From contig OZ245033.1 in NCBI GenBank assembly GCA_965224025.1, positions 1,408,001-1,472,000 on the forward strand: 64,000 nucleotides of DNA, given 5' to 3'. Below are positions 3,787-35,314 of this stretch, piece by piece. Position 1 is the stretch's first letter. Each line of letters opens with the position of its first letter. The DNA comes from Candidatus Multivorans sp. (lineage in GTDB: Bacteria > Acidobacteriota > Thermoanaerobaculia > Multivoradales > Multivoraceae). Both the position numbers and the translations under genes were made by a program. Below the pieces are notes generated by a model. The model was not told the origin of the DNA. It ran no database searches and saw only the letters and a list, made by a program, of their open reading frames with translations.

Positions 3787-3837
3787 GCCCCACGTTTGCA
3801 AGATGCCGCAGTCAACACGCGCGGCCGGGGGGTAGAG

Positions 3838-4455
3838 ATGAACGCGATGGCCGATCACAGTGGTGGTTGGAACTTCGATGCCGAGGTGCTGCCCTTCAAG
3901 GACAGCCTCTACAGTACGGCCTACCGGATGTCCCGGAACCGGCAGGACGCCGAAGACTTGATCCAGGAGACCTATCTTCGGGCGTACAAGTACTACGACA
4001 AGTTCCAGGAAGGGACGAACTTCAAGGCCTGGCTGTTCAAGATCCTCAAGAACACGTTCATCAACCGCTACCGCAAGCGCCAGCGGCAGCCGCTGAAGAA
4101 CTCGTTCGACGACATCGAGGGCGCCTTCGAGTGGAAGCTCCTGGAGTCGCCGTTGACGGCCCGCGGCAAGACGCCGGAAGAAGACCTGCTTGAGGGCGCC
4201 CTGGATCAGGACGTCAAGAGGGCACTCGAGGCTCTGCCTGAGGACTACCGGACGGCCGTCGAACTGGCCGATCTGCAGGGACTGTCCTACCGCGAGATTG
4301 CCGACCGGCTCCAGATCCCCCTTGGAACGGTGATGAGCCGGCTCTACCGGGGGCGGCGCAAGCTGGAGACGGTCCTGCTGCGCTACGGGCGTGACCACGG
4401 CTACATCCGTTCCGGCATGCCCCGGAAGATGCGGTCCAGGCAGGATGCGGCCTGA
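3838..4455 (+). CDS. ECF sigma-70 factor (SigH/SigR-like)
   Basis: DAEDLIQETYLRAY, GTNFKAWLFKILKNTFINRYRK and SYREIA...GTVMSRLYRGR motifs. Confidence 0.93.
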   Translation: MNAMADHSGGWNFDAEVLPFKDSLYSTAYRMSRNRQDAEDLIQETYLRAYKYYDKFQEGTNFKAWLFKILKNTFINRYRKRQRQPLKNSFDDIEGAFEWKLLESPLTARGKTPEEDLLEGALDQDVKRALEALPEDYRTAVELADLQGLSYREIADRLQIPLGTVMSRLYRGRRKLETVLLRYGRDHGYIRSGMPRKMRSRQDAA

Positions 4456-4646: not shown

Positions 4647-6056
4647 GTGCAGAATGCTCGGCGACGTGGCAGAATAGTGCCTTCGGCCGCGCCCTTCCGA
4701 CTCCGCCAAACTGTGTATTCCAAGCAACTTGCAGGTTGGATCTGCGTTTCGGTCCTGCTCGCCGGGACGGCCGTTCTGGGCTGGCTCGCCCTGAAGCCCC
4801 GGCCCGGAAAACTGGTTCTGGCCATTCCCGACGCGGGGGTTGACCGGGCGGGCGGCGCCGACGCCGACGAAGGCCAGGGCCTGGATGCCACTGCCCTCGA
4901 CCGGGCGCCCTTCCCTCTGGAGAACCGCATTCGAAGCGGGGACACGCTGGACCGCGTACTGCTGCGAGCGGGCGTTCCCGACTCCGAGCTGTACCAGGCG
5001 TCGAGGGCGGTAAGCGAAGTGCTCGATCCACGGAGGCTCCGAGCCCGTGACCCGGTCTATTCCATGGTGCGCCAAGGCGGGGAGTTGGTGGGTATCAAGC
5101 TGCCGCGCCGGGGCCAGGGCGTGGTGGTCGCGGAGCGAACGGACGGCGTGTGGAGCAGTCGCTACCGTCCCTTCCGGCGGGCCCACGTGCGACGGTCGTT
5201 TGCCGGCGAACTGCGGGGTGCCCTTGAGAGTTCGATTCGTCGGGCCGGCGGGCCTCCCAGCCTCGCGAACAGCATGGCCCGGGTGCTGCAGTGGGACCTG
5301 GATTTCAACCGCGATCTTCGGGTTGGCGATCGCTTCGAGATCCTCTACGACGAACTGCTGCTCGACGGCAAGTTCGAGAGTGTTGCAGCCATTCACGCGC
5401 TGCGCTACCGGAACCGGGAACGTTGGCTCGAGGCGTACCGCTTCAGCGATGACGGGGGCGCCGAAGGCACGGCGCCGGAGGGTGCCGTCGCGCTGGCGGC
5501 GACGGGACCGAACCGCTACTACGATGGCGAGGGGCAGCCGCTGCGACGGCAGTTCCTCCGTTCCCCGCTTCCATACTCCCGCGTCACGTCGCGGTTCTCC
5601 CTGAATCGCTTCCATCCGATCCTGAAGCGGCGCATGCCCCACTACGGCGTCGATTACGGGGCGCCGGTCGGAACCGCCGTGCGGGCGACTGCCGACGGCG
5701 CCGTGGCCTCGGCAGGCACTCGTGGCGGCGGCGGCCGAACCGTCCGCCTGCGTCATGCCAACGGCTACGTGACGTCCTATCTCCACCTGTCCGGCTATGC
5801 GGAGGGGATTCGTCGCGGCCGTCGCGTTCAGCAGGGTCAGGTGGTCGGTTACGTGGGTTCGAGCGGCCTCTCAACCGCTCCCCATCTCGACTACCGGGTG
5901 CAGCGCAATGGTCGTTGGATCAATCCCGCCACCCTGGTCAACGAGCCTGTTCCGCCGCTGGCCGATGCCGTGCTGCCTGCCTTTCTCCGGCACTGCGACG
6001 CGCTACGCCGGGAACTCCGCGGCGCGGACAGTTCCGTCGTTAGCGCGGGGCCGTAG
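4647..6056 (+). CDS. M23 family peptidoglycan DD-endopeptidase (MepM/Csd3-like)
   Basis: N-terminal TM, HYGVDY (HxxxD), YLHLS and PHLDY motifs; start uncertain. Confidence 0.9.
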   Translation: MQNARRRGRIVPSAAPFRLRQTVYSKQLAGWICVSVLLAGTAVLGWLALKPRPGKLVLAIPDAGVDRAGGADADEGQGLDATALDRAPFPLENRIRSGDTLDRVLLRAGVPDSELYQASRAVSEVLDPRRLRARDPVYSMVRQGGELVGIKLPRRGQGVVVAERTDGVWSSRYRPFRRAHVRRSFAGELRGALESSIRRAGGPPSLANSMARVLQWDLDFNRDLRVGDRFEILYDELLLDGKFESVAAIHALRYRNRERWLEAYRFSDDGGAEGTAPEGAVALAATGPNRYYDGEGQPLRRQFLRSPLPYSRVTSRFSLNRFHPILKRRMPHYGVDYGAPVGTAVRATADGAVASAGTRGGGGRTVRLRHANGYVTSYLHLSGYAEGIRRGRRVQQGQVVGYVGSSGLSTAPHLDYRVQRNGRWINPATLVNEPVPPLADAVLPAFLRHCDALRRELRGADSSVVSAGP

Positions 6057-6433: not shown

Positions 6434-7876
6434 CTACTCGAGGGAGCGGGCGCGTTCGCGGAGGATCGAGTAGGCCTCGGAGCGGGAGAGTTCGTCGTCG
6501 AGCTGGAGATTGAAGGTCTCGCTCCAGGCGCCGGTCGCCGGATCGGTCTCGACGTAAGCCAGCGAAGACCCGTTCTCCCAGGCGACCACTGCCCCGGTGC
6601 CATTGGGCGAGACGAAGATCTTCTGCTGGCCGCTTCCGGTCGTGGGGGCCGCGCGCTCCGATTTGACCTGCAACCGGGCAAGGTGCTGGACGTAGCCGTC
6701 GCCGACCGGTTGGGCGGCGGCGAGGAGCACGTGGCCGTTTCCGTTCGCGGCCCCCTCCAGTAGATCGCCTTCCTGGGATCGAGCGCCAACCAGCACGATA
6801 TGAACTCGGGCAGCACTGGAGATGCCTGTCAGACCGTCCTCAGCGCACAAGTCCGCCGCGCGATCAACGAGTACATTCTCTACGTCTTGCGCCAATGGAC
6901 TGAGCACTCGGCTCCGAATCCGGCGACCCACGAGCACGATGTGTACACGGGCCGCTTCGGCTACCGAGGTGATCGCGTCCGCTTCCTCGTTCTCGATCCG
7001 CAGGCAGAGATTGGTGGATTCCAAATGATCTGCGAGGCTGTCGGCGAGTTCTGCCAGTTCGACTGCCGGTGTGGAGAGTTCCAACTGGACGAAGGCTCCG
7101 CTGGCGCTATCCGCGAAACCGATGACAACCGCGTTGGACTCGGAGGCGGAGTCGACGGTGGGTGCCTTGAGCAGACTCGCCGGCACTTCGCCGTCGAACG
7201 GATCGTCGATCAACTCCTGCGATACGTAGTCGTTCAGCCGGTGAACGCGGCGCCACGTGGATGCAAGCTCGCCGTTGATGAGAACGACAGGCGCGTACAT
7301 GGCCCTCTCGCCATCGGCCGTGTTTTCCGACCAGACGACATGAAGGACGGTTCGGGCGCTCGACAGGCCGCTACTTCCTTCCGCGAGTTCGAATCGATCG
7401 TGCGTGACGGCGAGGCGCGGGGCCGACTTGTTGCTATAGATGTTGCCGGAGACTTCAATGGTGTCGGACCATTCGCTGCCGTCGAAGGAGGCCAGGTTGA
7501 TCCGCGTCAGGGTCGAGTCGTTGTTGCTCGACCAAACGACGTAGAGCCGGCCGGTGGAGGCGTCGAAGAACAGCGACGGCGTCTTGTCGCTGTCGTCCGC
7601 CTCGCTGCCGGGCACCAGGTGGTGCTCGACCGTGCCGGAACCGCGCCGGGCCTCTAGCAGTAGGACTTCGGCTTCGGCCGAGGCTTCGCTGCCATCCGGG
7701 AACAAGTCGACGTAAGTTCCGATGACGATTTGGTAGACATCGCCGCTCTTTCCCAGCACCGGTGCGCTGTTCGCGGCATGCAACGCACCGTTGCCGAACA
7801 GCAATGCCAGGACTGCTGCACCGACCGTGCCAGCCAGTCGTCCCCCGTTCGAGATTTTCTTGAGCATGCGCTTCAT
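6434..7876 (-). CDS. Secreted protein of unknown function with two AARVHIVLVG motifs
   Basis: Start overlaps the TPR gene stop (GTGATG); Sec-type signal ending ALHA; beta-rich VVW segments; motif copies at 6926-6955 and 6785-6814. Confidence 0.8.
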   Translation of the reverse strand: MKRMLKKISNGGRLAGTVGAAVLALLFGNGALHAANSAPVLGKSGDVYQIVIGTYVDLFPDGSEASAEAEVLLLEARRGSGTVEHHLVPGSEADDSDKTPSLFFDASTGRLYVVWSSNNDSTLTRINLASFDGSEWSDTIEVSGNIYSNKSAPRLAVTHDRFELAEGSSGLSSARTVLHVVWSENTADGERAMYAPVVLINGELASTWRRVHRLNDYVSQELIDDPFDGEVPASLLKAPTVDSASESNAVVIGFADSASGAFVQLELSTPAVELAELADSLADHLESTNLCLRIENEEADAITSVAEAARVHIVLVGRRIRSRVLSPLAQDVENVLVDRAADLCAEDGLTGISSAARVHIVLVGARSQEGDLLEGAANGNGHVLLAAAQPVGDGYVQHLARLQVKSERAAPTTGSGQQKIFVSPNGTGAVVAWENGSSLAYVETDPATGAWSETFNLQLDDELSRSEAYSILRERARSLE

Positions 7877-8886
7877 CACGCTCTCAGGTTCACCACTTGC
7901 CGGACATCGAGCGACATGAGCACATTCGCAAGTCCAGTCTGCTCGGGATAGAAGCGCTGCTGAAGCTCGTGGAAGAACTGACGCGCCCCTTCGGTGTCCC
8001 GGTCCAGTATGGCCGCCTGTCCCAGCAGGTACAGGCTGTTCTTGACCGCATCCCAGTTTTCGTGCTGGCGGGCCAAGTTCAGGGCGCGTTGGCCATGCCG
8101 CTTTGCGTCGCTCGGCCGGTTCAACTCTAGGTGAGCGAAACACAGGTCCAGGTGCGGCAGTATGCTGAGTTGGACCGCTCCTTCGCGCCGAAAGGTGCGG
8201 ATGCTCCGGTAGACCAACCGAAGCCCCTCCCGCATTCTGGCACGACGAAAGCCCTTGGCCCCGAGCGCACTGACGAGTAGGCAGTGGCCCAGATTCGTCT
8301 CGGCGCTGGCTGTCCAGGCAGGCGGTGCGCCGTTCGCGTCGCGCAGCGCCGTTCGGTAACAGACAGCTGCCTCAGTTTCCCTGCCTTCGGCCACTAGGAG
8401 GTTACCCATGAGAGTCTGCGCCAAGCCTGTGAGGCCGTCGCGCTCGACATACACCGCACGATCGCGGAACAACCGGGCATAGAAGAGCGCCTTCTTGATC
8501 TGCCCCTCCAACTCGTGCGCGCGGGCCAAGGTATAGGAGGCCAGACAAGAGTTGTGGTCGACGGTGGTTCCGAGCAGGATCGGCCGCAGTCTGGGCATGA
8601 CCTCGGCCCCGTTCCCGAGTTCGGTCTCCGCCGCTCCCCAGCCGCAGAGGGCCTCGTCGGCCAGGTCGGCTTCGCCCGCGGCGGCGGCGACTTGGGCGGC
8701 CTGTCGATAGACGGCGGCGGCTTCCCGGTACGAGCCCGTGGCGACCAGTTCCCGCCCGCGGTCGCGGAGCGTCTCGAAGTCCTCGGTCACGTCGGTCGCG
8801 CACGCCTCCACCTCGGGCGCTGGAACGCGCTCCGGGATAAACGTCGGCTCAGGCGACGAGTGGGTGGGAAGAACTGTGGCGGTCAC
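7876..8886 (-). CDS. Cytoplasmic tetratricopeptide-repeat protein
   Basis: Repeated helical A..Y..AL and (N)LG patterns; no signal peptide or obvious HTH; TAGAAT 9 nt upstream of the GTG start. Confidence 0.8.
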   Translation of the reverse strand: MTATVLPTHSSPEPTFIPERVPAPEVEACATDVTEDFETLRDRGRELVATGSYREAAAVYRQAAQVAAAAGEADLADEALCGWGAAETELGNGAEVMPRLRPILLGTTVDHNSCLASYTLARAHELEGQIKKALFYARLFRDRAVYVERDGLTGLAQTLMGNLLVAEGRETEAAVCYRTALRDANGAPPAWTASAETNLGHCLLVSALGAKGFRRARMREGLRLVYRSIRTFRREGAVQLSILPHLDLCFAHLELNRPSDAKRHGQRALNLARQHENWDAVKNSLYLLGQAAILDRDTEGARQFFHELQQRFYPEQTGLANVLMSLDVRQVVNLRA

Positions 8887-9082
8887 TGGTAACCGATTCT
8901 ACGCCATAACGAGTGGAAGGTGGTAGGCGGCTGGAACTGCCGTTGTCGACGACCTGCCGCGGGGCCTCGACGGCCGAGTATACCCGCATAGGCACCGCCT
9001 GCAGCACGGCGATAGCCGTGCCTTCCGATCTCTCTTGTGCGGCAGGCCTTCGTAGCCGCGGCGGCCGTTCCCCAGGCTCGCC

Positions 9083-9124
9083 CAAGAGCAAGAGCGCCGT
9101 CCCTGACTTGAACAGGAACGGCGC
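9083..9124 (-). terminator. Intrinsic terminator between the peptide frame and the TPR gene
   Basis: Minus strand GCGCCGTTCCTG-ttcaagt-CAGGGACGGCGC followed by TCTTGCTCTT. Confidence 0.6.
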
Positions 9125-9217
9125 CCAAGGGGATTCGTCGCGGGAGCGTACTGGCGGCTGGTCGCTCACTAGTCGTTCAGACCGCTGCCAGCCTCGCGCC
9201 GGCGATCCCAAGTTGTC

Positions 9218-9398
9218 TCAGAACGCCAGGCGAAAGGCGGCCGCCACGGCGGACCGCACCACCTTGCCCGAGATTCGCGGAGCCATACGGCTGACCGCCT
9301 GCTGCACGATCCCGCCATCCGCTTGCCGCTCGGCGGTTCCGGAATTCCGGCTGCCTTCACGTCCAACGAGGACGATGTGGGCCCTTGCGCAAGTGCAC
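9218..9398 (-). CDS. Putative small peptide ARAHIVLVG...VVRSAVAAAFRLAF (start unresolved, possible frameshift)
   Basis: Frame 9388-9218 gives 56 aa plus TGA; no in-frame ATG/GTG/TTG precedes the motif; an SD-preceded GTG at 9398 is one base out of frame. Confidence 0.55.
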
Positions 9399-9459
9399 GG
9401 CGGTGCGTCTCCCGCAGCGCCAACGAAGCCGGAATCGACTGGACTACAATGCTCGCTCC

Positions 9460-9752
9460 ATGATCCGGTCGTTCGTCGATCGAGCCACCGAGGACATCTT
9501 CGACGGCGCGGCGACGCGAGCGGCTCGGAGAGGGTGTCCTCCTGCCGTTTGGCGTGTTGCCCGAAGGAAGCTCACGCAGCTCAACCAAGTGGACGAACTC
9601 CGCTATTTGGCTGTGCCGCCGGCAACCGCCTGGAGCGGCCGCGAGGAGATCGAGCCGGTCAGTACAGCATCCGAATCAACGACCACTATCGAGCCTGTCT
9701 TGTCTGGGAGGGAGGCTATGCCGACGACGTCGAAATCGCCGACTACCACTGA
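9460..9752 (+). pseudogene. higB: HigB/RelE-family toxin, frameshifted
   Basis: MIRSFVDRATEDIFDG...ARRKL...LAVPP in one frame and GNRLE...GQYSIRINDHYR...VEIADYH in another; one base missing near 9620. Confidence 0.85.
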
Positions 9753-9798
9753 GGCGGCTGCGGGCAGCCGCGGTGGAGGAACTCTGTCCGCACGCCGG

Positions 9799-10107
9799 TT
9801 GCCACGGTGTCAACCCCCGGCGCACCCGGGAGAGATGCTGCTCGAGGAGTTCCTGAAGCCGTTGGGCATCTCGCAGTCGGCATTTGCCCGGAGGCTGGGT
9901 GTCTCCTATCCGCGCCTTCGTGGGATCGTCCATGCCAAGGGCACCGTGACTGCAGATACGGCGTTGCGGTTGGCCCGAGTTACCGGGATGACCGCCGAAT
10001 TCTGGCTCGGCCTGCAGCAGGACTGGGATCTCTGGCACGCTGCACGGTCCAGGAACGCGGCAGCCATCGAGGCACTGGAGCCGCTGCGTACCTCGGCTAC
10101 TTCGTAG
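9799..10107 (+). CDS. higA: HigA-family antitoxin (Xre HTH)
   Basis: PAHPGEMLLEEFLKPLGISQ, TADTALRLAR and EFWLGLQQDWDL motifs; start uncertain. Confidence 0.9.
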   Translation: MPRCQPPAHPGEMLLEEFLKPLGISQSAFARRLGVSYPRLRGIVHAKGTVTADTALRLARVTGMTAEFWLGLQQDWDLWHAARSRNAAAIEALEPLRTSATS

Positions 10108-27376: not shown

Positions 27377-29398
27377 TCAGCGGCGCCAGGGGGCGCGGAT
27401 CTTGCGGCCTTCGCGGTAGGCGGCGAGCCGTTCGCGGGCTTCTTCGAGGGCCTCGGGGGGGCTGGTTCGTTCCAGGTTCTCGATGAGTCGTTCCTGCCAG
27501 GACGCGGCCTCTTCGAAGTTGCCGGTTCCGGCGTAGGCCATGGCGAGGACGGCGCCGTGGGCCGGTGTATGGGCGCGCTGGAACAACTGCTGGGCGAGAT
27601 TCAGGGCTCTTTCGCCGTCTCGCACCTCGTCGTCCTCGGAGGCGGCGAGGACCTGGACCAGGAGCACGGCGAAGTAGCCGCTGCCGCCCTGGTCGGGAAG
27701 TTCGAGGGTCTGCTCGAGCATGAGCCGCACCTGGGCATCCTCGCCCGCGAGCAGCAGGGCCGTGACCTCCGCTGCCCGGACCTGGCTGTCGGTGGGGTCG
27801 AGTTCCAGGGCGCGGCGCGAAGCCAGGGCGGATTCCTTGAAACGGCCGAGACGACCGAGGGCGGTGCTCAGGTTGACGTAGGCCGCCTTGAGGGTCGGGT
27901 TGGCGATGATCGCCCGCTGGTAGTGGGGGATCGCCTCCTCGTAGCGCTCCTGCTCGGTGCGGATGTTGCCGAGTTCGAAGTGGGCCGCGCTCAGGTGGCC
28001 CGGCTCGCCCCCCGCTTTGATGAGCTGTTCGAAGCGACTAACCGCCGAGGCTGGTCGGCCGAGTTCCTGCTCGATCCGCCCGAGCTGCATCACGATCTCG
28101 CGATTGAGTCCGAAGTCGGCCAGCAACGACTCGAACTCCCGCAACGCGAGTTCGCGGCGGCCTCCGCGCCGGTAGTTGCTCGCCCGATGGAAGCGGAGGT
28201 TGCGGTCGCCCGGCGCCAGTTCGAGGGCCTGGGTCAAGGCTTCGGCGGCCCCGAGATGGTCGCCTGTTTCGCCCCGGCTCCTTGCCAGTTCGACCCAGGC
28301 CGGCCCGAAGGACGGTTCGATCTCGACCGCCCGGCCCAGGCGCTTGGTCGCCGCACGGAACGCTCCTTGCTCGTTGTAGAGCCGGCCGGTGTGGAAGAGC
28401 AGCCCGGCGTCGTCGGGGCTCAGGTTCAGTGCCTCCTGGTACCACATGACGGCCTCGGCGCGCCGGCCCATCTTCTCCAGGGCCGCCGCGAGGGACCGTT
28501 TGGCGGCGGCACTCCGGGGATTGTCCTGGACCGCTTCGCGGAAACGCTGCTCGGCGAGTTCGAATGCGTTCGCCGCCAGGGCGACGCGGCCCAGCAGCAA
28601 TTGAGCGCCGATTCCCGTGGCTGATTCCTTGATCTCCGCCGCGATGGGATCGGCGAAGGCGACAGGCGCCTCGCCGCGGAGTTCCATCGCCGCGCGCGAC
28701 TCGCTGTCGTTGCCGAGTGCGCGCTGGGCGATGCCGATGTGGTAGTGAAGCGAGTTTGCCCGAGGCTGTTCGCGCAACGCTGCCTGGAAGTGCTCGAGCG
28801 CCGCCGCCGGGTCGTCGGTCTCGGTAGCCAGGCGGCCGAGGCCGAAGTGCGCCGCCGCCCTCGCTCCGGGCAGTTCCAGGCCACGCTCATAGTGGGTGCG
28901 CGCTTCTTCGCCTTGTCCCAACTCGAGGTAGACCCGGCCGAGACGGATGACCGTCGCCGGATCGCCCGGTTGGAGCGCGCGGGCCTGCTCGTAGGCGGCG
29001 ACCGCCTCCTCGAGTTGCCCCAGGTGCTCCGCGGCGCTGCCGAGGAGGTAACGCCAACGGAAGTTGCGCGGTTGCAGCTCCGCGGCGTTGGCTAGACAGG
29101 CTCTCGCCGGCGGCAAGAGGTCGTACACGAGGTAGAGCTGACCGGCCTCGCCGAACAGCAATCCCAGTTGATCGGCCTCTTCCGCGGTTGACGCTCCCGC
29201 GGCGAGGGCGTCGTCGAGCAACTTGCGTTGTTCGGCGATCTGAGTGCGCACCGCTTCGTCGACGCCGCGAAGATCGACTTCGGGCACAGGCACGAGCCGG
29301 TCGGTGACCTCGGTTTGCGCGCCAAGACCGGTAGCCGAGAGCGAGAGCGGGAGCACAAGGCCGGCAGTCAGGCGCAGCCAACGAAACGGTTTCATCAT
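27377..29398 (-). CDS. Secreted TPR protein
   Basis: Signal peptide and many canonical TPRs; ATGA-coupled to the upstream gene. Confidence 0.9.
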   Translation of the reverse strand: MMKPFRWLRLTAGLVLPLSLSATGLGAQTEVTDRLVPVPEVDLRGVDEAVRTQIAEQRKLLDDALAAGASTAEEADQLGLLFGEAGQLYLVYDLLPPARACLANAAELQPRNFRWRYLLGSAAEHLGQLEEAVAAYEQARALQPGDPATVIRLGRVYLELGQGEEARTHYERGLELPGARAAAHFGLGRLATETDDPAAALEHFQAALREQPRANSLHYHIGIAQRALGNDSESRAAMELRGEAPVAFADPIAAEIKESATGIGAQLLLGRVALAANAFELAEQRFREAVQDNPRSAAAKRSLAAALEKMGRRAEAVMWYQEALNLSPDDAGLLFHTGRLYNEQGAFRAATKRLGRAVEIEPSFGPAWVELARSRGETGDHLGAAEALTQALELAPGDRNLRFHRASNYRRGGRRELALREFESLLADFGLNREIVMQLGRIEQELGRPASAVSRFEQLIKAGGEPGHLSAAHFELGNIRTEQERYEEAIPHYQRAIIANPTLKAAYVNLSTALGRLGRFKESALASRRALELDPTDSQVRAAEVTALLLAGEDAQVRLMLEQTLELPDQGGSGYFAVLLVQVLAASEDDEVRDGERALNLAQQLFQRAHTPAHGAVLAMAYAGTGNFEEAASWQERLIENLERTSPPEALEEARERLAAYREGRKIRAPWRR

Positions 29399-31173
29399 GG
29401 CTTATCTTGTTCCCCTGGTCTTGCCCATCGACCCGTGTCGCGCGCGAGGTCAGTGTAAGCCGCCGGAGGCGGCGCTGGCCAGTGCTCGACTCTTCCGTCG
29501 GGCCATTGGACCTCGATTCGCGTGACCTCGACGCCGTTCGGGCTCACCGTGACGCGGGGGTCGTTCGAAGACGCGTAGCTGCCGCTGCTGCCCGCCAGCC
29601 GCACGAGGGGCGGCGCTCCGGCCCGGCGGATTCGCACGGTCGCCCCGGACGCCGGGCGGTGAGCGTGCGCGGTGCCCACGCGGGGCGCCAGACCGATCCA
29701 GTCGCCGAGCGCCGTTGCCTGATTGAGCAACAGCCGGGCCGGGCCGTTGTTGTTCGTGATGACCATGTCCGTGTCGCCATCGTTGTCGATGTCGCCGGTC
29801 GCGAGACCCCTGCTCACGAGCGGTGTGGGACCGTCCAGGATGCCGGCCGGCGCCGGTTCGAACCGGCGGTTGCCGCTACCGCCCGCCACGTTGAGGAACA
29901 CCTGGTTCGGTTGATCCAGGGGGAACGGATCGTCTTCGGTGCGCGGCCTCCCGGCGGCGAACGTCACGGCGCCGTTGACCACGGCAAGGTCGAGCCAGCC
30001 GTCAAGGTCGAGATCGACGAAGGCGGTGCCGAAGGATGTCGCGTCCCAGCTCGGCCGCGCCAGGGCGGCCGCGTTCGTCCGATCGCGGAAGGAGGGTGCT
30101 CCGGGTTCCGAGTCGTTCCGGTAGAGGGTGTTGGTTTCCCGGTTGAAGTGGGTCAGGAAGAGATCGATGTCGCCGTCGCCGTCGTAGTCGCCGCCGGCGA
30201 CACCCATGCTGGCCTCGGCCTCGCCGTCGGCGTTGAGCGCCGCACCGCCGATCAGACCCTCCTCCACCAGTACACCGTTTCCGCCGTTGATCCAGAGGTG
30301 GTTCGGCATCAGATCGTTGGCGACGTAGAAGTCGAGCCGGCGGTCGCCGTCGAGATCGGCCGCAAGCACGCCGAGGCCGTTGCCGGGACGGGTCGAAGCG
30401 AGACCCGCCTCGGCGGTCGCGTCCGTGAATGTCCCGTCGCCGTCGTTGCGCAGCAGGCGGTCGAGGACGGGTTGATAGGCGCTGGGCAGGCAGTAGTCGA
30501 CTTCACCGCGCTCGGTGAGACAGGTCTTGTGGGTTGCCAGGGAGAAGTTCAGGTAGTTGACAACGAACAGGTCGAGGTCGAGGTCGCCGTCGTAGTCGGC
30601 GGCGGCCGCCGCGATACTCCAGCGCGAGTCGCCCGTGCCGGTGGCCTCGGTGCGGTCGGTGAACGTCCCGTCGCCCTGGTTGCGCCAGAGCTGGTTGTCG
30701 CCGAGGTTGAGCACGTAGAGATCGGTCCAGCCGTCATTGTCCAGATCGCCGGCAATGGCTCCCATGCCGTAGCCGGTCGCGACGATGCCGCTCTCCTCGG
30801 TGACGTCGACGAAGCGGATGCTCTTGCCGTCCTCTCGAAGTTCGAGGTCGTTGCGGTAGAGACGATCGCTGGGCGGCCAGTCTCCGGTCCACGGTACGTT
30901 TGCGATGGTGCGCTCCCCGTTCGCGCCGAGCAGGTTGCCCTGAACCAGGTAGAGGTCCAGGTCGCCGTCGTTGTCGTAGTCGAAGAGCGCGGCCCCTGCT
31001 CCCACTACCTCGGCGTAGTAGAGCCGGCCGCTCATGCCGTTCCAATGCCGGAAGTCGAGACCGGCGTTCTTCGTTGCGTCGACGAAGAGAACCTCCGTCT
31101 CGCCAGCTCGGGCGAGTCCGGGCGAGAGCGCCGACGCAGCCCACACGGCGACGCAGCCAGGAGCGACTCTCAT
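29395..31173 (-). CDS. CRTAC1-family FG-GAP repeat / ASPIC-UnbV protein
   Basis: Repeated DYDNDGDLDL and LYRNxG motifs; C-terminal GSYAS...VQWPDG. Confidence 0.92.
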   Translation of the reverse strand: MRVAPGCVAVWAASALSPGLARAGETEVLFVDATKNAGLDFRHWNGMSGRLYYAEVVGAGAALFDYDNDGDLDLYLVQGNLLGANGERTIANVPWTGDWPPSDRLYRNDLELREDGKSIRFVDVTEESGIVATGYGMGAIAGDLDNDGWTDLYVLNLGDNQLWRNQGDGTFTDRTEATGTGDSRWSIAAAAADYDGDLDLDLFVVNYLNFSLATHKTCLTERGEVDYCLPSAYQPVLDRLLRNDGDGTFTDATAEAGLASTRPGNGLGVLAADLDGDRRLDFYVANDLMPNHLWINGGNGVLVEEGLIGGAALNADGEAEASMGVAGGDYDGDGDIDLFLTHFNRETNTLYRNDSEPGAPSFRDRTNAAALARPSWDATSFGTAFVDLDLDGWLDLAVVNGAVTFAAGRPRTEDDPFPLDQPNQVFLNVAGGSGNRRFEPAPAGILDGPTPLVSRGLATGDIDNDGDTDMVITNNNGPARLLLNQATALGDWIGLAPRVGTAHAHRPASGATVRIRRAGAPPLVRLAGSSGSYASSNDPRVTVSPNGVEVTRIEVQWPDGRVEHWPAPPPAAYTDLARDTGRWARPGEQDKP

Positions 31174-33425
31174 CCGTCGTCGCCCAGGCGGAACGCGGGC
31201 GCGTCGATGCGCTCGAGAGCTTCCGCACGCTCGCTGATCCGGTAGACGGCCCGTGGTTCTACGTCTTTGAAGACCTGGTGTGTGTCGCTGCCGGCCCAGC
31301 GCACCCGGATCTCGGAGATTCGGATCGCGTCGCCGAGCCCCACTTCGAGTTGCATGCTGTTGCCGCCGAAGGAGCCGCCCGATCCGACCAGACGATGGAT
31401 CGTGCGTTTGCCGTTCGGACCCTGGATGGATAGGGTGACCCGTGAGCCGACCCCGAAGCGGTTGGCGCCCGAGCCGGCCGGGCCGGCGCCGGCAAAGCGC
31501 AGCGTGACCCAGGCGTTGCCGCTGCCCGGGTTCTCGAACAGGGCGTTGCCGAAGGTGTCGGTTGGGTAGAAGCCGCCGAGCTGGTGGAGAAGGTCCATGT
31601 CTCCGTCGCGGTCGAGGTCGCCGAACGCCACGCCATGTCCCTTCTGGAGGTGGCCGAAACCGCCGGCGAAGGTGACCTCCTCGAAGCGCCGGCCATCGAA
31701 GCGGTACATGACATTCGGCATCAGACTGGCGAGGTCCGGTTCCCCGGTGCCGAGGTAGAAGTCGAGCCAGCCGTCGTTGTCCAGATCGCCGTAGTTGGCG
31801 CCCATCGGCATGGCCGGCCGGCGGATCCCCAGCTCGCGGGATACTTCGGTCATCCGCAGCTTGCCGCCGCAGCCGGGCTCAGCTCCGCAGTCGTTGCGGT
31901 AGAGCAGGGGCTGGCCCACCCCGGGGTCCGAGCCCATGAAGGACGCCACGACTTCGGTGGCTTGGCCGCGATAGTCGCCGACGTAGAGATCGAGGTCGCC
32001 GTCGTTGTCATAGTCGAAGAACCAAGTGGCGAAGCTCTCCCGCTCCGGTTCGGTGACGCCCGTCTGGACGGCGGCATCCAGGAAAACGCCGCCGTCGTTC
32101 AGGTAGAGCCGGTTGGCGCCGAAGTTGGAGACGTAGAGATCGAGGTCGCCGTCGTTGTCCGCGTCGCCCCAGGCGGCGCCCTTGGCGTAGCGCAGGTTGC
32201 TGACCCCCGCCATTGTCGCCACGTCCTCGAACGTGCCGTCGCTGAGGTTGCGGAACAGTTGCGACGGGTACTCGTGGGCCTCACTCGCCTCGTTGCCGAC
32301 GTAAAGGTCGAGGTCGCCGTCGTTGTCGTAGTCGCCCCAGGCGGCGGCCTGGGTCGGATAAGCGGGTTCAGCCAGGCCGGCGGCCTCTGTGACGTCGATG
32401 AAACGGCCGGCGTCACCATTCAGTTCGTTGCGCAACAGCGAGTTGCGGATGCGGCCCTCCTCCAGCAGCCAGGCGCCGCGTAGCACCATCAGGTCGAGGC
32501 TTCCGTCGTCGTTGTAGTCGGCGTGGAGCAGGTTCAGACCGCCAAGCTGACCGCTAAGACCCCAAGCTTCGGCGACGTCCTCGAAGCCGCCTCGACCGTC
32601 GCCTCGGAATGCTCTGAGCGGACCGCACGGATCCCACGTTGAGGTGATGAGGTCGAGAGTGCCATCGCTGTCGAAATCGTCGACTATGGCGCCGCCAGCG
32701 AGATCGAGAGCGTCAACCCCGAGTTCCGGGCCGAGATTGCGCCAGCGCCCCCCCGGAACCGGGGCGGAGGCGAACACGTCCTCGCCGATCCGGAAGTGGA
32801 CGGGCACGCCCTCGGGGAAGTCGCCGGTCAATCGGCGCGCGACGTTGAGTAGCCACCTTGCCCGTTGCCGCCAGGGACCGGTCGGGCGTCCTTCCTGCAG
32901 CATTGCCAGGAAGAGGTCGCCTGCTGCGCGAGCATGTTCGGGACGGGCGTGGACTGCGGAGGAGGTGAGCGGGAGGATGCAGCTATCGGCCGAACGCCTG
33001 ACTCGATGGATTTTCCCCTGCTCGGTGGCTCCGTCGTCGGGAGCGGCTCCGGTGTCGAGGTGATGGACGCAGTTCAGATCCTCGGCCCGCTGGAGATGGG
33101 CCAGCGCCTGGTCCCACTCGGCAACAGTCGGCCGGTCGGCGGCAGATGAAGCAGCCAGCGCCGTGGTTGCCGCCGCGAGGTGTTTGATCGCCGCCGCAGT
33201 GTCGCCGAGCCGGAGCAACTCGCTTCCGAGTTGGGCCCTTATCGTGGGGCTTGCCGGGGTCGAGGACAGCTCGGCTCGAAGCTCGTCCGCGAACCTTGTG
33301 CCGAAGTAAGGGTTTGAGCTGTCTTGCAGCCGCTGACAGGATTCTTTGAAGTCTTCGGCGAGCGCGGCGGCGGCAGCGAGAAAAGCTGCGAGCAGGACCA
33401 GACTGGCGAGCCTGCGGGCCGGCAT
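31170..33425 (-). CDS. CRTAC1-family FG-GAP repeat / ASPIC-UnbV protein
   Basis: Signal peptide; WGDYDNDGDLDL repeats; GGSFGG...EVGLG...VRW. Confidence 0.92.
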   Translation of the reverse strand: MPARRLASLVLLAAFLAAAAALAEDFKESCQRLQDSSNPYFGTRFADELRAELSSTPASPTIRAQLGSELLRLGDTAAAIKHLAAATTALAASSAADRPTVAEWDQALAHLQRAEDLNCVHHLDTGAAPDDGATEQGKIHRVRRSADSCILPLTSSAVHARPEHARAAGDLFLAMLQEGRPTGPWRQRARWLLNVARRLTGDFPEGVPVHFRIGEDVFASAPVPGGRWRNLGPELGVDALDLAGGAIVDDFDSDGTLDLITSTWDPCGPLRAFRGDGRGGFEDVAEAWGLSGQLGGLNLLHADYNDDGSLDLMVLRGAWLLEEGRIRNSLLRNELNGDAGRFIDVTEAAGLAEPAYPTQAAAWGDYDNDGDLDLYVGNEASEAHEYPSQLFRNLSDGTFEDVATMAGVSNLRYAKGAAWGDADNDGDLDLYVSNFGANRLYLNDGGVFLDAAVQTGVTEPERESFATWFFDYDNDGDLDLYVGDYRGQATEVVASFMGSDPGVGQPLLYRNDCGAEPGCGGKLRMTEVSRELGIRRPAMPMGANYGDLDNDGWLDFYLGTGEPDLASLMPNVMYRFDGRRFEEVTFAGGFGHLQKGHGVAFGDLDRDGDMDLLHQLGGFYPTDTFGNALFENPGSGNAWVTLRFAGAGPAGSGANRFGVGSRVTLSIQGPNGKRTIHRLVGSGGSFGGNSMQLEVGLGDAIRISEIRVRWAGSDTHQVFKDVEPRAVYRISERAEALERIDAPAFRLGDDG

Positions 33426-33466
33426 GGACGAAGACTACTACGATCCGGGCGCGCGCCCGTTCGCGG

Positions 33467-35314
33467 CTAATCCGCCGGAGGCTTCGCGGTTTCAGGCTCC
33501 GAGTCGCCGTCGTCGGCAGGGGTCGAGGACGCCGCCTCGCCCGGGTCGCCGACGGTGAGTGCTTCTCCATCCGTCGCCGGTGGCGCGGGCGGAACCGGCG
33601 CGGCGGGGGCCGTGCCGTAGTCGGAAGTGCCGAACCGGGTCATGAAGACCGCGCCGAGGCCGATGGTCCAGGCGACGTAGCAGATCAGGACTCCTGGTAT
33701 GCGGAACATGGCGCGGAAGAACCAGGGCAGACCCAGAAAGCCGAGCAGGTCGGCCACGAGTGCGAGCGCCTGGATCGCGAGGACGCCGAGCGCCAGAGCG
33801 CCGAAGCTGCCGGCCGCTACCCGGCCGGCGCCCTGGAAGCGCCGGCGGCACCAGTCGCCGGCCGCCGCCGCCGATCCCGCGTAGCCGAACACGAAGGCGG
33901 CCGCCAGACCGATGAACGCCGCCGGCCAGACGAGGACGGCGAAGGGAATGCCGATGATCGTCACCGCGAGCAGCAGGCTGACGATGACCAGGACGGGGAT
34001 GAAGAAGACCTCCACGCCCAGGCCGACCGCGAACATGATCCCGAGGTCGGACGCCGCCGCCGACCGCACCCGGCCGACCCCCTTCGGCGCCACCAGGAGG
34101 ACCAGGCCGCTAAGCGCAATCAGCAGAAAAGTGAAGATGATCGACTGGACGAACTCGAAGACCTTGCCCAGTCGGAAGAAGGGGGGCCGGTCGCCGACAC
34201 CTGGAAACCAGTCGCCGTCCCAACCGTCGAACCAGTCGCCGCCGAAGTTCCAGTCGAAGTCATCCCAGGCCACCTCGGATACCTCGCCGAGCACGGACGA
34301 TCCGTCTTCCCGCCGTACCCTGCCGCCGACCGTGACGATGTCGCCAAACACCTCCGCTTCGGGGCCGAGCTCCACGTCGCCGCCGATAGCGACCACTTCG
34401 CCGGTCACGCGGCCATTGATCTTCGCTTCGCCGCCGACCGAAACCGCGTCGCCGCGAACCTGACCGTCGACCTTGACGTCGCCGCCGATCGAGACGATGT
34501 CGTTGACCACTTCGTCCCGGCCGACGCGCACGGTGCTGCCGAAGGCGACCCTGTTGTCGAGGTCGACGACGAGTTCTCCCTCGATCCCGTTCAAGTCGCG
34601 CTCGAGATCCTCCAGCCGCTCGATGGCCCCCTCGATCGCATCCTGGGCCTGTTCGCCAGCTTCCTCGAGTGCTTCGTCAAGGGTCTCTCGCGCTTCCTCC
34701 AGAGCCGCGCTCGCTTCCTCCTGGGCCTCCTGGGCCTCTTGTGCTTCCTGAGGCTGGCCGAACGCCAAGCCGGTGCAGCACAGTCCGCCGACCAGCAACA
34801 GGGCGCCGGCTCGTGCTCCACGGATCCGCCGCCGGCCGCCCGGTCCCGAAGAAAGCCGGTGGAGAAGATAGACCGCGGTCAGGCTGAGCAGCGTCGAGAC
34901 GGCCACCACCGCGGTGACCTGTGGCGTGCGCAGAATCAAGTCGAGAGCCTCTCCGACCTGGACCGCGCCGCTCAGGAACGCGAGGCTCTCGGCGAGGACG
35001 CCGGCGGTCCAGGTCAGGATCCAGACCGCGCTGAAGAGCGCTGCTTCCAGGGCTCTCAGCATGGTCAGCCAGGTGGACGGGACGAGCAGCATCCCGCCTC
35101 CGAGCAGGAGCATCGCCGTTGCCGCCGTTGCGCCGGCTGACACGCGTGCCCACCGGGACATCGGGAACGGCAAGAGCTGCGGAGCTGGCGCCGGCGCTTC
35201 GATCGGCCGCTTCGCGGCCGCCACCTGCCGCATGACGCGACCGACGAACCCGTCCGATGGGGCGGGATCCTCTAGCGATTGGAAGAGAGTCCGGAGGTCG
35301 ATTCGGTTCCGCAT
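33467..35314 (-). CDS. Membrane protein: anti-sigma-like N-terminus, beta-helix (bactofilin-like) repeats and multi-TM C-terminus
   Basis: P.PSDGFVGRVM; VSIGGDV/VAIGGDV/VTVGG repeats; TIIGIP; lies downstream of an ECF sigma gene. Confidence 0.7.
   Translation of the reverse strand: MRNRIDLRTLFQSLEDPAPSDGFVGRVMRQVAAAKRPIEAPAPAPQLLPFPMSRWARVSAGATAATAMLLLGGGMLLVPSTWLTMLRALEAALFSAVWILTWTAGVLAESLAFLSGAVQVGEALDLILRTPQVTAVVAVSTLLSLTAVYLLHRLSSGPGGRRRIRGARAGALLLVGGLCCTGLAFGQPQEAQEAQEAQEEASAALEEARETLDEALEEAGEQAQDAIEGAIERLEDLERDLNGIEGELVVDLDNRVAFGSTVRVGRDEVVNDIVSIGGDVKVDGQVRGDAVSVGGEAKINGRVTGEVVAIGGDVELGPEAEVFGDIVTVGGRVRREDGSSVLGEVSEVAWDDFDWNFGGDWFDGWDGDWFPGVGDRPPFFRLGKVFEFVQSIIFTFLLIALSGLVLLVAPKGVGRVRSAAASDLGIMFAVGLGVEVFFIPVLVIVSLLLAVTIIGIPFAVLVWPAAFIGLAAAFVFGYAGSAAAAGDWCRRRFQGAGRVAAGSFGALALGVLAIQALALVADLLGFLGLPWFFRAMFRIPGVLICYVAWTIGLGAVFMTRFGTSDYGTAPAAPVPPAPPATDGEALTVGDPGEAASSTPADDGDSEPETAKPPAD

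What the first reader, a model, noticed from the sequence alone, without database searches (positions are those of the whole stretch)
6785..6955. Decapeptide duplicated exactly while its codons are synonymously diverged
Copy 1 reads GCG GCC CGT GTA CAC ATC GTG CTC GTG GGT and copy 2 reads GCT GCC CGA GTT CAT ATC GTG CTG GTT GGC. Seven of ten codons differ, all synonymously, and the flanking residues are not conserved. This implies strong purifying selection on the exact peptide. VHIVLV is a strongly beta-prone hydrophobic core set in an otherwise helical-looking insert; copies start 47 aa apart and each is preceded by a single Cys 13-16 residues upstream. Inference: a released signal peptide, a strand-exchange element or an amyloid-like nucleation motif.
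Basis: partly seen in the sequence, partly recalled or inferred. Interest (0 to 1): 0.75.

Follow-up and report, generated by a model that had tools for sequence, protein, structure and literature searches.

The report
Twin peptide ligands matched to TPR partner
The two identical ten-residue peptides sit in an exported protein and appear to be kept identical, with free codons, because both must fit the binding groove of the TPR protein encoded just upstream, forming a fast-diversifying peptide-receptor pair in an acidobacterium.

Summary
AARVHIVLVG occurs twice, 47 residues apart, in a Sec-type exported 480-aa protein ("REP", window 6434-7876, minus strand), and 7 of 10 codons differ synonymously.

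It is a family-wide rule, not chance. 115 of 117 close and 126 of 145 distant relatives carry an exact repeat of 8 aa or more in the same insert. The peptide differs between proteins.

DNA gene conversion is excluded in this clade. Codon identity between copies is 187/391, against 0.46 expected from codon usage.

The decisive finding concerns the TPR gene directly upstream (7876-8886, overlap TGATG).
- It co-varies one-to-one, with size complementarity, with the three variable motif positions in 45 cassettes.
- The top 30 of 48,840 TPR x REP column pairs all involve motif columns.
- Independent sister pairs agree.

So both copies are most likely ligands of one cognate TPR groove.

Small upstream genes carry the same motif, usually in variants seen in other strains' REP: micro-ORFs ending exactly at the motif, and a Sec-signal mini-protein.

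My reading is a Rap-Phr/RRNPP-like peptide-receptor cassette. Peptide release, import and the output are not shown. A dedicated export chaperone is the main rival. AlphaFold2 puts both copies in helices, not strands, so the amyloid and strand-exchange readings are unsupported.

The parts
6434..7876 (-). REP: exported 480-aa protein. It has a beta-propeller-like body with a ~100-aa helical insert that carries the two motif copies.
   Evidence: ORF and translation. No Pfam, NCBIfam or PDB sequence hit. 570 representative clusters in the family. AF2 model with mean pLDDT 90.8. Foldseek gives sialidase or lectin propellers at E about 3e-5 and TM 0.25-0.35.
7775..7876 (-). Sec-type signal peptide, residues 1-34 (MKRMLKK..ALHA|AN).
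   Evidence: Read from the sequence: basic n-region, hydrophobic core, A-x-A-like end. The N-terminus is variable in relatives. No signal-peptide predictor was run.
6773..7063 (-). Helical insert, residues 272-368 (helices 272-288, 290-297, 299-316, 322-368). It is absent from class-level relatives.
   Evidence: DSSP of the AF2 model. Relatives without the insert are listed.
6926..6955 (-). Motif copy 1, AARVHIVLVG, residues 308-317.
   Evidence: It lies at the C-terminal end of helix 299-316.
6785..6814 (-). Motif copy 2, AARVHIVLVG, residues 355-364.
   Evidence: It lies inside helix 322-368.
7876..8886 (-). Cognate TPR protein, 336 aa counted from GTG 8886. No signal peptide is seen. Residues 1-33 are disordered, followed by seven helix pairs. 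Its stop overlaps the REP start by 1 nt (TGATG).
   Evidence: Pfam TPR_2, TPR_14 and TPR_12. AF2 pLDDT 87.9. Foldseek gives LGN/Pins TPR at TM 0.58-0.69 and RapI/Rap-phi3T at TM 0.57-0.59.
9218..9426 (-). 5'-truncated remnant of a small secreted two-motif gene. It holds a third motif copy, ARAHIVLVG, at 9362-9388.
   Evidence: The DNA alignment to intact genes of L004, L005 and L011 shows homology starting inside the first motif.
4647..6056 (+). M23 peptidase, convergent neighbour, conserved in many loci. A role in this system is not shown.
   Evidence: Pfam Peptidase_M23 and Csd3_N2. Synteny.
3796..4455 (+). ECF sigma factor, conserved neighbour. A role in this system is not shown.
   Evidence: Pfam Sigma70_r2 and r4_2. 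Synteny.

Best explanation
The two decapeptides are two copies of a short ligand motif (core R-x-H-[IL]-V-x-x-G). The motif is displayed in a helical insert of a Sec-exported beta-propeller-like protein (REP). The translationally coupled upstream gene encodes a cytoplasmic all-TPR protein whose groove recognises this motif. Both copies are held identical at the protein level because each must fit the same receptor pocket, and their codons drift freely. Receptor and ligand change together and quickly between strains, like pherotypes, and duplicated cassettes in one genome carry different matched pairs. The most likely mechanism works like Rap-Phr/RRNPP peptide signalling: REP and the small motif-bearing precursors are exported, motif peptides are released by proteolysis and re-imported, and they bind the TPR receptor. 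What is supported by data: identity of the copies, absence of DNA conversion in this clade, and TPR-motif co-variation with size complementarity. What is inferred: physical binding (my odds 0.85). What is inferred more weakly: release, import and signalling (my odds about 0.4).
For: (1) Copies identical at variable positions 4, 8 and 9 in 117/117 close relatives; position 6 differs in 2/117. (2) No DNA homogenisation: 187/391 same codons against 0.46 expected, and copy-specific synonymous signatures at codons 2 and 3. (3) 45 TPR-REP cassettes were found, and each REP paralogue has its own TPR. (4) The code, in real TPR numbering (= numbers printed minus 4): motif position 9 V/F/G pairs with residue 48 V (24/25) / G (17/17) / L (3/3). 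Position 4 V/I/A/H pairs with residue 197 T (18/18) / G (14/14) / V (6/6) / G (7/7), and His also with D240 and S244 (7/7). Position 8 L versus V/I pairs with C114/W114, F140/S140, A144/S144 and A156/S156. (5) Same-sample control: TPR columns with normalised MI of 0.8 or more are 6, 3 and 1 of 222; REP non-motif columns are 0, 0 and 0 of 214. (6) Unbiased scan: the top 30 of 48,840 TPR x REP pairs all involve motif columns (8 of 220 REP columns), as do 43 of the top 50. (7) 22 disjoint sister pairs. Position 4 against residue 197: 6 both differ, 0 motif only, 0 TPR only, 16 neither. Position 8 against residue 143 or 156: 4/0/0/18. Position 9 against residue 48: 4/0/1/17. (8) 3 of 3 further pairs obey the code; they were paired only by equal contig length. 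(9) The strongest covarying residues (48/49, 75, 114, 155-157, 197, 239-244) lie on odd-numbered (A) helices of the TPR model. The fold is nearest to peptide-binding TPR superhelices: LGN/Pins, then Rap. (10) The motif is an autonomous unit. 14 micro-ORFs of 20-25 aa, each with a Shine-Dalgarno sequence, end exactly after the motif's Gly, in 10/39 loci. A Sec-signal mini-protein carries two motifs between Gly/Asp/Pro-rich linkers. A 49-aa two-motif ORF stands upstream of the TPR gene in a distant genome. (11) Receptor gene next to the propeptide gene, Sec export and 1-4 repeated pheromones per propeptide are described for RRNPPA systems (PMC11343458, introduction read).
Against: REP is 480 aa with a confidently folded body, not a 50-120-aa propeptide. 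AF2 places both motifs in a folded helical bundle. Class-level relatives have the TPR partner but no insert, only one motif-like segment, so the TPR-REP partnership predates the repeats. That fits a chaperone as well as a signalling system. The TPR protein has no recognisable output domain. Similarity to Rap is no better than to generic TPRs. The small upstream peptides are almost never the strain's own type: 1 of 30. No protease, importer or target is tied to the locus. Oligopeptide-binding proteins exist in the genome, but they are common in bacteria. The co-variation is statistical, and no binding was measured.
Confidence: 0.6

Rival explanations
1. The TPR protein is a dedicated cytoplasmic chaperone or export pilot. 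It holds the motif segments of the REP precursor before Sec export, like the TPR class II chaperones encoded upstream of their type III secretion cargo. The copies are identical because both are docking sites for that chaperone.
For: Translational coupling through TGATG. The TPR-REP pair is conserved across the class, even where REP has no insert and only one motif-like segment. A fast-folding helical insert could need a holdase. The same co-variation data apply.
Against: A chaperone gives no reason for rapid diversification. Motif positions 4, 8 and 9 show Fitch counts of 14, 16 and 12, which lie high in the distribution of REP columns (mean 4.9, median 3, 95th percentile 16; only position 8 reaches the 95th percentile). 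It also gives no reason for micro-ORFs and a Sec-signal mini-protein that carry motif variants of other strains.
Confidence: 0.25
2. A polymorphic antagonist pair: REP is a secreted effector and the TPR protein is its cytoplasmic immunity or neutralising partner. The two co-diversify as colicin-immunity pairs do.
For: Tight cognate co-variation and orthogonal duplicated cassettes. REP is exported.
Against: The recognised element is a short linear motif in an insert, not a catalytic domain. REP has no toxin-family hit. Its body resembles sialidase or lectin propellers only weakly. There is one conserved chromosomal copy per genome in most genomes.
Confidence: 0.07
3. A purely structural constraint inside REP: the two segments pack in equivalent or in-register positions (strand exchange, amyloid-like stacking or a symmetric bundle) and so must be the same.
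For: Both copies lie in a confidently modelled helical insert. The motif is rich in hydrophobic, beta-branched residues.
Against: Both are modelled as helix, in non-equivalent places: the end of helix 299-316 and the middle of helix 322-368. No other REP column co-varies with them; the next-best normalised MI is 0.33-0.58 in 117 proteins, and no column reaches 0.8 in the 45-cassette control. All strong partners are in the TPR protein. The motif also occurs alone at the C-terminus of 20-25-aa peptides and between disordered-looking linkers.
Confidence: 0.05
4. Gene conversion or recent duplication keeps the copies alike at the DNA level.
For: In 19 distant loci, codon identity between copies is slightly above expectation: 179/245 = 0.73 against 0.65. 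One pair is identical over 33 nt (L087).
Against: In the window's clade, identity is 187/391 = 0.48 against 0.46 expected. Copy-specific codons persist across peptide changes, for example CGG against CGC at Arg and TTC against TTT at Phe. The window itself differs at 7 of 10 codons.
Confidence: 0.03

Closest known systems
RRNPP(A) peptide quorum sensing, especially Rap-Phr with tandemly duplicated pheromones (Bacillota and their phages)
   Same: A cytoplasmic TPR-type receptor gene sits directly next to the gene of a Sec-exported precursor. Short unmodified peptides of 5-10 aa are repeated 1-4 times, identical or modified, in one precursor. Specificity for the own peptide is high, and Rap receptors lack a DNA-binding domain (PMC11343458, abstract and introduction read). 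Rap structures are among the sequence and fold hits.
   Different: The phylum is Acidobacteriota, a diderm. No paper in the library holds both 'RRNPP' and 'Acidobacteri'. The RRNPP_Detector paper, in the passage seen, assigns peptide signals to Bacillota. The carrier is a 480-aa folded protein, not a 50-120-aa propeptide. No N-terminal effector domain is seen. Peptide release and import are untested. Homology to Rap cannot be separated from generic TPR similarity.
SHP/Rgg short hydrophobic peptide pheromones of streptococci
   Same: The micro-ORFs here are 20-25 aa and hydrophobic, with the motif at the extreme C-terminus ending in ...V-x-x-G. Mature SHPs are C-terminal peptides such as EGIIVIVVG and DIIIIVGG (PMC3679016, passages read).
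   Different: The receptor here has no HTH domain. The micro-ORF peptides start with acidic or neutral residues rather than basic ones. Their motif type is not the type matched to the adjacent TPR.
LGN/Pins TPR domain binding extended peptides (Inscuteable, NuMA, Frmpd)
   Same: This is the best structural match of the TPR model (TM 0.58-0.69). It is a superhelix of helix pairs that binds a linear peptide in its inner groove. The inferred polarity here puts the peptide C-end at TPR repeat 1 and the N-end at repeats 5-6. That is antiparallel, as I recall for LGN complexes; I did not check this.
   Different: LGN/Pins is a eukaryotic polarity protein, and there is no evidence of common descent beyond the TPR fold.
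TPR class II chaperones of type III secretion translocators (IpgC, SycD, PcrH); recalled, not searched here
   Same: A small TPR protein is encoded directly upstream of its cargo and binds a short linear motif of the cargo in its concave face.
   Different: The cargo here has a Sec signal peptide and there is no type III system in the locus. The pair diversifies quickly, and free-standing motif peptides exist.

Membership tests
RRNPP(A) receptor-propeptide systems | Cytoplasmic receptor with a TPR-type peptide-binding domain | tested here: met
   Pfam TPR_2, TPR_14 and TPR_12. The AF2 model has seven helix pairs. No signal peptide was seen, by inspection only.
RRNPP(A) receptor-propeptide systems | Adjacent gene for a small (50-120 aa) secreted propeptide | tested here: inconclusive
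   The adjacent downstream gene is Sec-type but 480 aa and folded. Small motif genes exist upstream in 19/40 loci, but they carry other motif types. In the window only a truncated remnant is left.
RRNPP(A) receptor-propeptide systems | Mature peptide binds its cognate receptor specifically | tested here: inconclusive
   Co-variation with size complementarity is strong. No physical test was possible.
RRNPP(A) receptor-propeptide systems | N-terminal effector module (HTH, or the Rap three-helix bundle) that acts on DNA or a protein target | tested here: not met
   No HTH or other domain was found by Pfam or NCBIfam. Residues 1-33 are modelled as disordered.
RRNPP(A) receptor-propeptide systems | Proteolytic maturation outside the cell and re-import by an oligopeptide permease | not testable with these tools
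   The genome has five SBP_bac_5 matches, which shows capacity only.
RRNPP(A) receptor-propeptide systems | Sequence or structural homology to known RRNPP receptors beyond generic TPR similarity | tested here: inconclusive
   Rap3T scores E 7e-7 and RapF 1e-4, but both rank below consensus TPR, LGN, AfsR and OGT. Foldseek places RapI and Rap-phi3T at ranks 40-50.
Amyloid signalling motifs (HET-s-like, bacterial BASS; recalled) | Motif at the C-terminus of an effector and the N-terminus of an adjacent NLR-type protein, forming a beta-solenoid | tested here: not met
   The TPR protein has no motif and no NB-ARC or NACHT domain. The motif is modelled as helix.
Sialidase/BNR-type beta-propeller (body of REP) | Propeller fold with family-level sequence signature | tested here: inconclusive
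   No Pfam hit. Foldseek gives E about 3e-5 but TM only 0.25-0.35. Atlas feature hits to BNR_4 clusters score 0.88-0.89, below the 0.9 lead threshold.

The most novel reading that the evidence does not exclude
A genetically encoded peptide-pheromone system with strain-specific pherotypes in a diderm phylum (Acidobacteriota, class Thermoanaerobaculia; many record titles read Candidatus Multivorans). A TPR receptor reads a 9-10-aa peptide that is stored in several identical copies inside an exported beta-propeller protein. Many strains also carry small genes for other strains' peptide types, which would be signal interference or eavesdropping between co-resident strains.
Probability: 0.35. Interest if true: 0.9.

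Novelty: new variant of a known kind. Interest (0 to 1): 0.8.

Why it matters
Ribosomal peptide signals read by cytoplasmic TPR receptors are treated as a Bacillota trait (passage seen in PMC10075063; PMC11343458, introduction). This finding points to an analogous cassette in Acidobacteriota.

Three features make it useful.
- A readable three-position specificity code was derived from natural variation alone, and it makes direct, cheap predictions for binding assays and receptor re-engineering.
- It gives a clean natural example of concerted evolution of repeats at the protein level without DNA homogenisation.
- It assigns a first functional handle to a large unannotated family (570 representative clusters, no Pfam model) and to its invariably linked TPR partner.

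If the chaperone reading is right instead, it would still be an unusual, rapidly co-diversifying chaperone-cargo code.

Tried and rejected
- **Complex prediction.** TPR (A4) with REP residues 343-378 gave no verdict (score 0.02, controls not run). This counts neither for nor against binding. Queue refusals occurred.
- **Expression.** No RNA holder was listed among 12 runs, so no reads were laid.
- **REP sequence searches.** Pfam, NCBIfam and PDB by sequence gave 0 hits. 20 distant members scanned against Pfam gave only scattered single hits.
- **ESM Atlas.** Only sub-threshold leads to BNR_4-like clusters appeared, and no stored structure.
- **Extending the code to distant relatives (28-36% identity).** The residues at the key TPR columns were tabulated, but no simple rule emerged at that divergence.
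- **Third partner inside REP.** I looked for a 'same slot' docking site and found none.
- **Class-level relatives without the insert.** I searched for extra motif copies or micro-ORFs and found only L072's second copy, at its C-terminus. The flanks there were only 1.5 kb.
- **TPR paralogues in the own genome.** None at E 1e-3.
- **Window gene content.** Only housekeeping neighbours, with no linked peptide importer or protease beyond M23.
- **Other stops.** Supplementary files of papers were not consulted.
Full report
**Observation.** The finding lies on the minus strand in ORF 6434-7876. Homologues show that this ORF starts at MKRMLKK and encodes 480 aa. I call the protein REP.
- AARVHIVLVG occurs at residues 308-317 (nt 6955-6926) and 355-364 (nt 6814-6785).
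- Seven of 10 codons differ, all synonymously.
- The N-terminus reads as a Sec signal peptide: basic, then hydrophobic, then ALHA|A. This is by inspection; no predictor was run.
- REP has no Pfam, NCBIfam or PDB sequence match.
- It belongs to a large family: 121 close proteins and 570 representative clusters at E of 1e-3 or better.
- Record titles name Acidobacteriota, Thermoanaerobaculia and 'Candidatus Multivorans' metagenome-assembled genomes.

**The repeat is a family rule.**
- In 38 of 39 close genome loci, and in the window, the two copies are identical over 9-11 residues and always 47 aa apart. L009 differs by one conservative residue.
- Among proteins, 115 of 117 close and 126 of 145 distant (28-36% identity) representatives carry an exact repeat of 8 aa or more inside residues 230-400.
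- The peptide is different in nearly every distant protein (ARAHIVHVGA, FRTQLIDIG, LADKIRGEIIEIG and others). It sits in up to four or five slots about 23 aa apart.
- In 117 close proteins the variable motif positions 4 (V/I/H/A/G), 8 (V/I/L) and 9 (V/F/G) never differ between the copies (0/117). Position 6 differs in 2/117. Position 1 is free and differs in 28/117.

**It is not DNA homogenisation.**
- In 40 taxa the two copies share the same codon at 187 of 391 same-residue positions (0.48). Gene-wide codon usage predicts 0.46.
- Codons 2 and 3 are less alike within a genome (0.17, 0.15) than the same copy is between genomes. Copy-specific choices persist while the peptide changes: CGG against CGC at Arg, TTC against TTT at Phe.
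- On a tree built with the motif masked, positions 4, 8 and 9 change at least 12, 14 and 10 times, identically in both copies.
- On the 45-cassette tree the counts are 14, 16 and 12. These lie high in the distribution of REP columns (mean 4.9, median 3, 95th percentile 16); only position 8 reaches the 95th percentile.
- In 19 distant loci, codon identity is slightly above expectation (179/245 = 0.73 against 0.65). Occasional conversion cannot be excluded there.

**The partner.**
- The gene directly upstream (7876-8886, minus strand) overlaps the REP start by one base (TGATG). It encodes a 336-aa TPR protein with no evident signal peptide.
- A TPR hit is present in 134 of 137 locus rows, and many loci were fetched twice. 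In nearly all it lies directly upstream of REP. This includes relatives at 28% REP identity and class-level relatives that match only the REP N-terminal part.
- I extracted 45 TPR-REP cassettes from the window and L001-L039. Five genomes have two cassettes, each with its own TPR and its own internally identical motif.
- Mutual information between motif positions and TPR columns is maximal for a few columns, and the contingency tables are nearly perfect.

The code follows, in true numbering. Numbers printed are 4 too high, because the stop-to-stop frame was used.

| Motif position | Motif residue | TPR residues |
|---|---|---|
| 9 | V | V48 (24/25) |
| 9 | F | G48 (17/17), usually with N49 |
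| 9 | G | L48 (3/3) |
| 4 | V | T197 (18/18) |
| 4 | I | G197 (14/14) |
| 4 | A | V197 (6/6), with L218, L240, L241, Y252, M255 |
| 4 | H | G197 with D240 and S244 (7/7) |
| 8 | L | C114, F140, R143, A144, A156 (12-13 of 13) |
| 8 | V or I | W114, S140, S144, S156 |
| 8 | I | also D148 (12/12) and G155 (11/12) |

Large residues face small ones and the reverse, and His faces Asp. This is what direct contact predicts.

**Controls for the co-variation.**
- In the same 45 cassettes no non-motif REP column reaches normalised MI 0.8 (0, 0 and 0 of 214). The TPR protein has 6, 3 and 1 of 222 such columns.
- I scanned all 48,840 TPR x REP column pairs without prior choice, with average-product correction. 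All of the top 30 pairs, and 43 of the top 50, involve motif columns. Motif columns are only 8 of the 220 variable REP columns.
- This also argues against simple linkage blocks. REP columns that lie physically between the TPR gene and the motif do not co-vary.
- In 22 disjoint nearest-neighbour pairs, changes coincide. Counts are: both differ / motif only / TPR only / neither.
  - Position 4 against residue 197: 6/0/0/16.
  - Position 8 against residue 143 or 156: 4/0/0/18.
  - Position 9 against residue 48: 4/0/1/17.
- Three further protein pairs, matched only by equal contig length, obey the code in 3 of 3 cases.

**Structures.**
- AlphaFold2 with a 149-row alignment models REP with mean pLDDT 90.8. 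It shows a beta-rich body and an all-helical insert (helices 272-288, 290-297, 299-316 and 322-368, pLDDT 93-97). Copy 1 ends the third helix and copy 2 lies in the long fourth helix.
- Foldseek relates the body weakly to sialidase and lectin propellers (E about 3e-5, TM 0.25-0.35).
- On a helix, positions 4, 5, 8 and 9 fall within one 140-degree arc, and the invariant positions 3, 6, 7 and 10 on the other side. This is my own arithmetic, not a tool result.
- The TPR model (pLDDT 87.9) has a disordered N-terminus (residues 1-33) and seven helix pairs.
- The strongest covarying residues lie on the odd-numbered helices 37-49, 73-89, 110-126, 152-166, 189-209 and 238-254. In TPR proteins these usually line the concave groove; that is recalled textbook knowledge.
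- The nearest solved folds are the LGN/Pins TPR domain in complex with peptides (TM 0.58-0.69). Rap receptors come lower in the list (RapI TM 0.59; Rap-phi3T with pheromone TM 0.57). A sequence profile also hits generic TPRs first and Rap proteins at 7e-7 to 1e-4.
- The order of contacts implies an antiparallel arrangement: peptide position 9 with repeat 1, position 8 with repeats 3-4, and position 4 with repeats 5-6.

**The motif also exists outside REP.** In 19 of 40 close loci there are 30 further copies on the same strand upstream of the TPR gene.
- *Micro-ORFs.* There are 14 in 10 of 39 loci. They encode 20-25 aa (for example MPTLIELIEAGLVLAARIHLVLVG) and have a GGAAAGGAGA-type Shine-Dalgarno sequence. 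The stop codon follows the motif's Gly directly. The nearest micro-ORF lies about 105-120 nt before the TPR start.
- *A mini-protein.* It is about 115 aa, with a Sec-type signal and two different motif copies between Gly/Asp/Pro-rich linkers.
- *The window's remnant.* In the window this mini-protein gene is cut inside its first motif, next to a higBA module. The remnant at 9218-9426 holds a third motif, ARAHIVLVG, at 9362-9388.
- *A distant genome.* A 49-aa ORF with two motif copies, the second at its C-terminus, also precedes the TPR gene.
- *Motif types.* Only 1 of the 30 extra copies has the strain's own REP type, while 25 of 30 equal a REP type seen in some other genome, from a pool of 23 types. 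Because the combinatorial space is small, I do not treat this as statistically proven.

**History.**
- Full-length relatives are confined to the window's order. Other families of the class have the TPR gene followed by a shorter REP. That REP lacks the insert and has one motif-like segment (for example SDARVHIPLGRG). One such protein repeats LTIPIG at its very C-terminus.
- So the TPR-REP partnership is older than the repeats.

**Interpretation.**
- The identity of the two copies is best explained by a shared external reader, the TPR protein. My odds that it binds the motif are 0.85.
- What the binding is for remains inferred. I favour peptide signalling of the Rap-Phr/RRNPP kind, at about 0.4. 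Five features point that way:
  - receptor and precursor genes are adjacent;
  - the precursor has a Sec signal;
  - it holds several identical copies of a 9-10-aa peptide;
  - free-standing small precursors end at the motif;
  - types turn over quickly and duplicated cassettes are orthogonal.
- These features are described for RRNPPA systems (PMC11343458, abstract and introduction read). Mature SHP pheromones such as EGIIVIVVG look alike (PMC3679016, passages read).
- Three facts weigh against it. REP is a large folded protein. The partnership predates the repeats. No output domain is seen on the TPR protein.
- Those three facts fit the main rival, a dedicated cytoplasmic chaperone for a Sec substrate (0.25). 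That rival does not explain the diversification or the foreign-type small genes.
- A toxin-immunity-like pair (0.07), a purely structural constraint (0.05) and gene conversion (0.03) are less likely.

**Literature.**
- No paper in the searched library holds both 'RRNPP' and 'Acidobacteri'.
- The RRNPP_Detector paper, in the passage found, assigns peptide signals to Bacillota (PMC10075063).
- I found nothing in the listing on the 'Multivorans', 'Acidobacteriota' and 'Thermoanaerobaculia' search that bears on this locus.
- Supplementary files were not seen.

**Use of unpublished data.** One row of alignment A4 (L065, genome G024) comes from an unpublished genome, and G024 is one of the 38 positive genomes. 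No claim depends on it.

Noticed in passing
window 9385-10107 (+) and 8913-9752 (+): A higB-higA-like toxin-antitoxin module sits between the remnant mini-gene and the next genes. The HigB-like N-terminal half (MIRSFVDRATEDIF...) and C-terminal half (...GDRAGQYSIRINDHYRACLVWEGGYADDVEIADYH) are in different frames, so higB looks frameshifted. The HTH_3 antitoxin part is intact. Related loci carry TA modules at the same spot, between a MutS2-like gene and the TPR gene.
   Followed up: partly
L015 3600-4850; also L032, L033, L037: A repeated DNA element precedes the micro-ORFs. In one frame it translates as ...AVASTGRSPPQGGRLH.... The micro-ORFs are duplicated on either side of inserted toxin-antitoxin-like genes, which suggests an insertion hot spot with target or cassette duplication.
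   Followed up: no
L017, L023, L025, L026, L032: Five genomes hold two TPR-REP cassettes. Their TPR proteins are 58-75% identical and their motif types differ, for example ARAHIVLVG and ARAHIVVFG in L023. These are recent duplicates that have become orthogonal.
   Followed up: partly
window 7876-8886 (-): The source's own gene call for the TPR protein is 304 aa and starts 32 residues downstream of the GTG at 8886. Residues 1-33 are modelled as disordered, yet their sequence is conserved among close relatives (compare). The true start is open, and the residue numbers in this report count from GTG 8886.
   Followed up: partly
REP residues 291 and 344 (window about 7004-7006 and 6845-6847): Two nearly invariant cysteines sit in the insert, one in each 47-aa half. 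They could form a disulfide after export. This was not examined in the model.
   Followed up: no
window 27377-35314 (-): A gene for a 673-aa multi-TPR protein is followed by two FG-GAP/ASPIC-UnbV repeat proteins and a 615-aa protein without Pfam hits. This block appears unrelated to the finding.
   Followed up: no
L072 (class-level relative): A REP relative without the insert repeats the hexapeptide LTIPIG, once internally and once as the last residues of the protein. This hints that exact duplication of the motif arose more than once.
   Followed up: no
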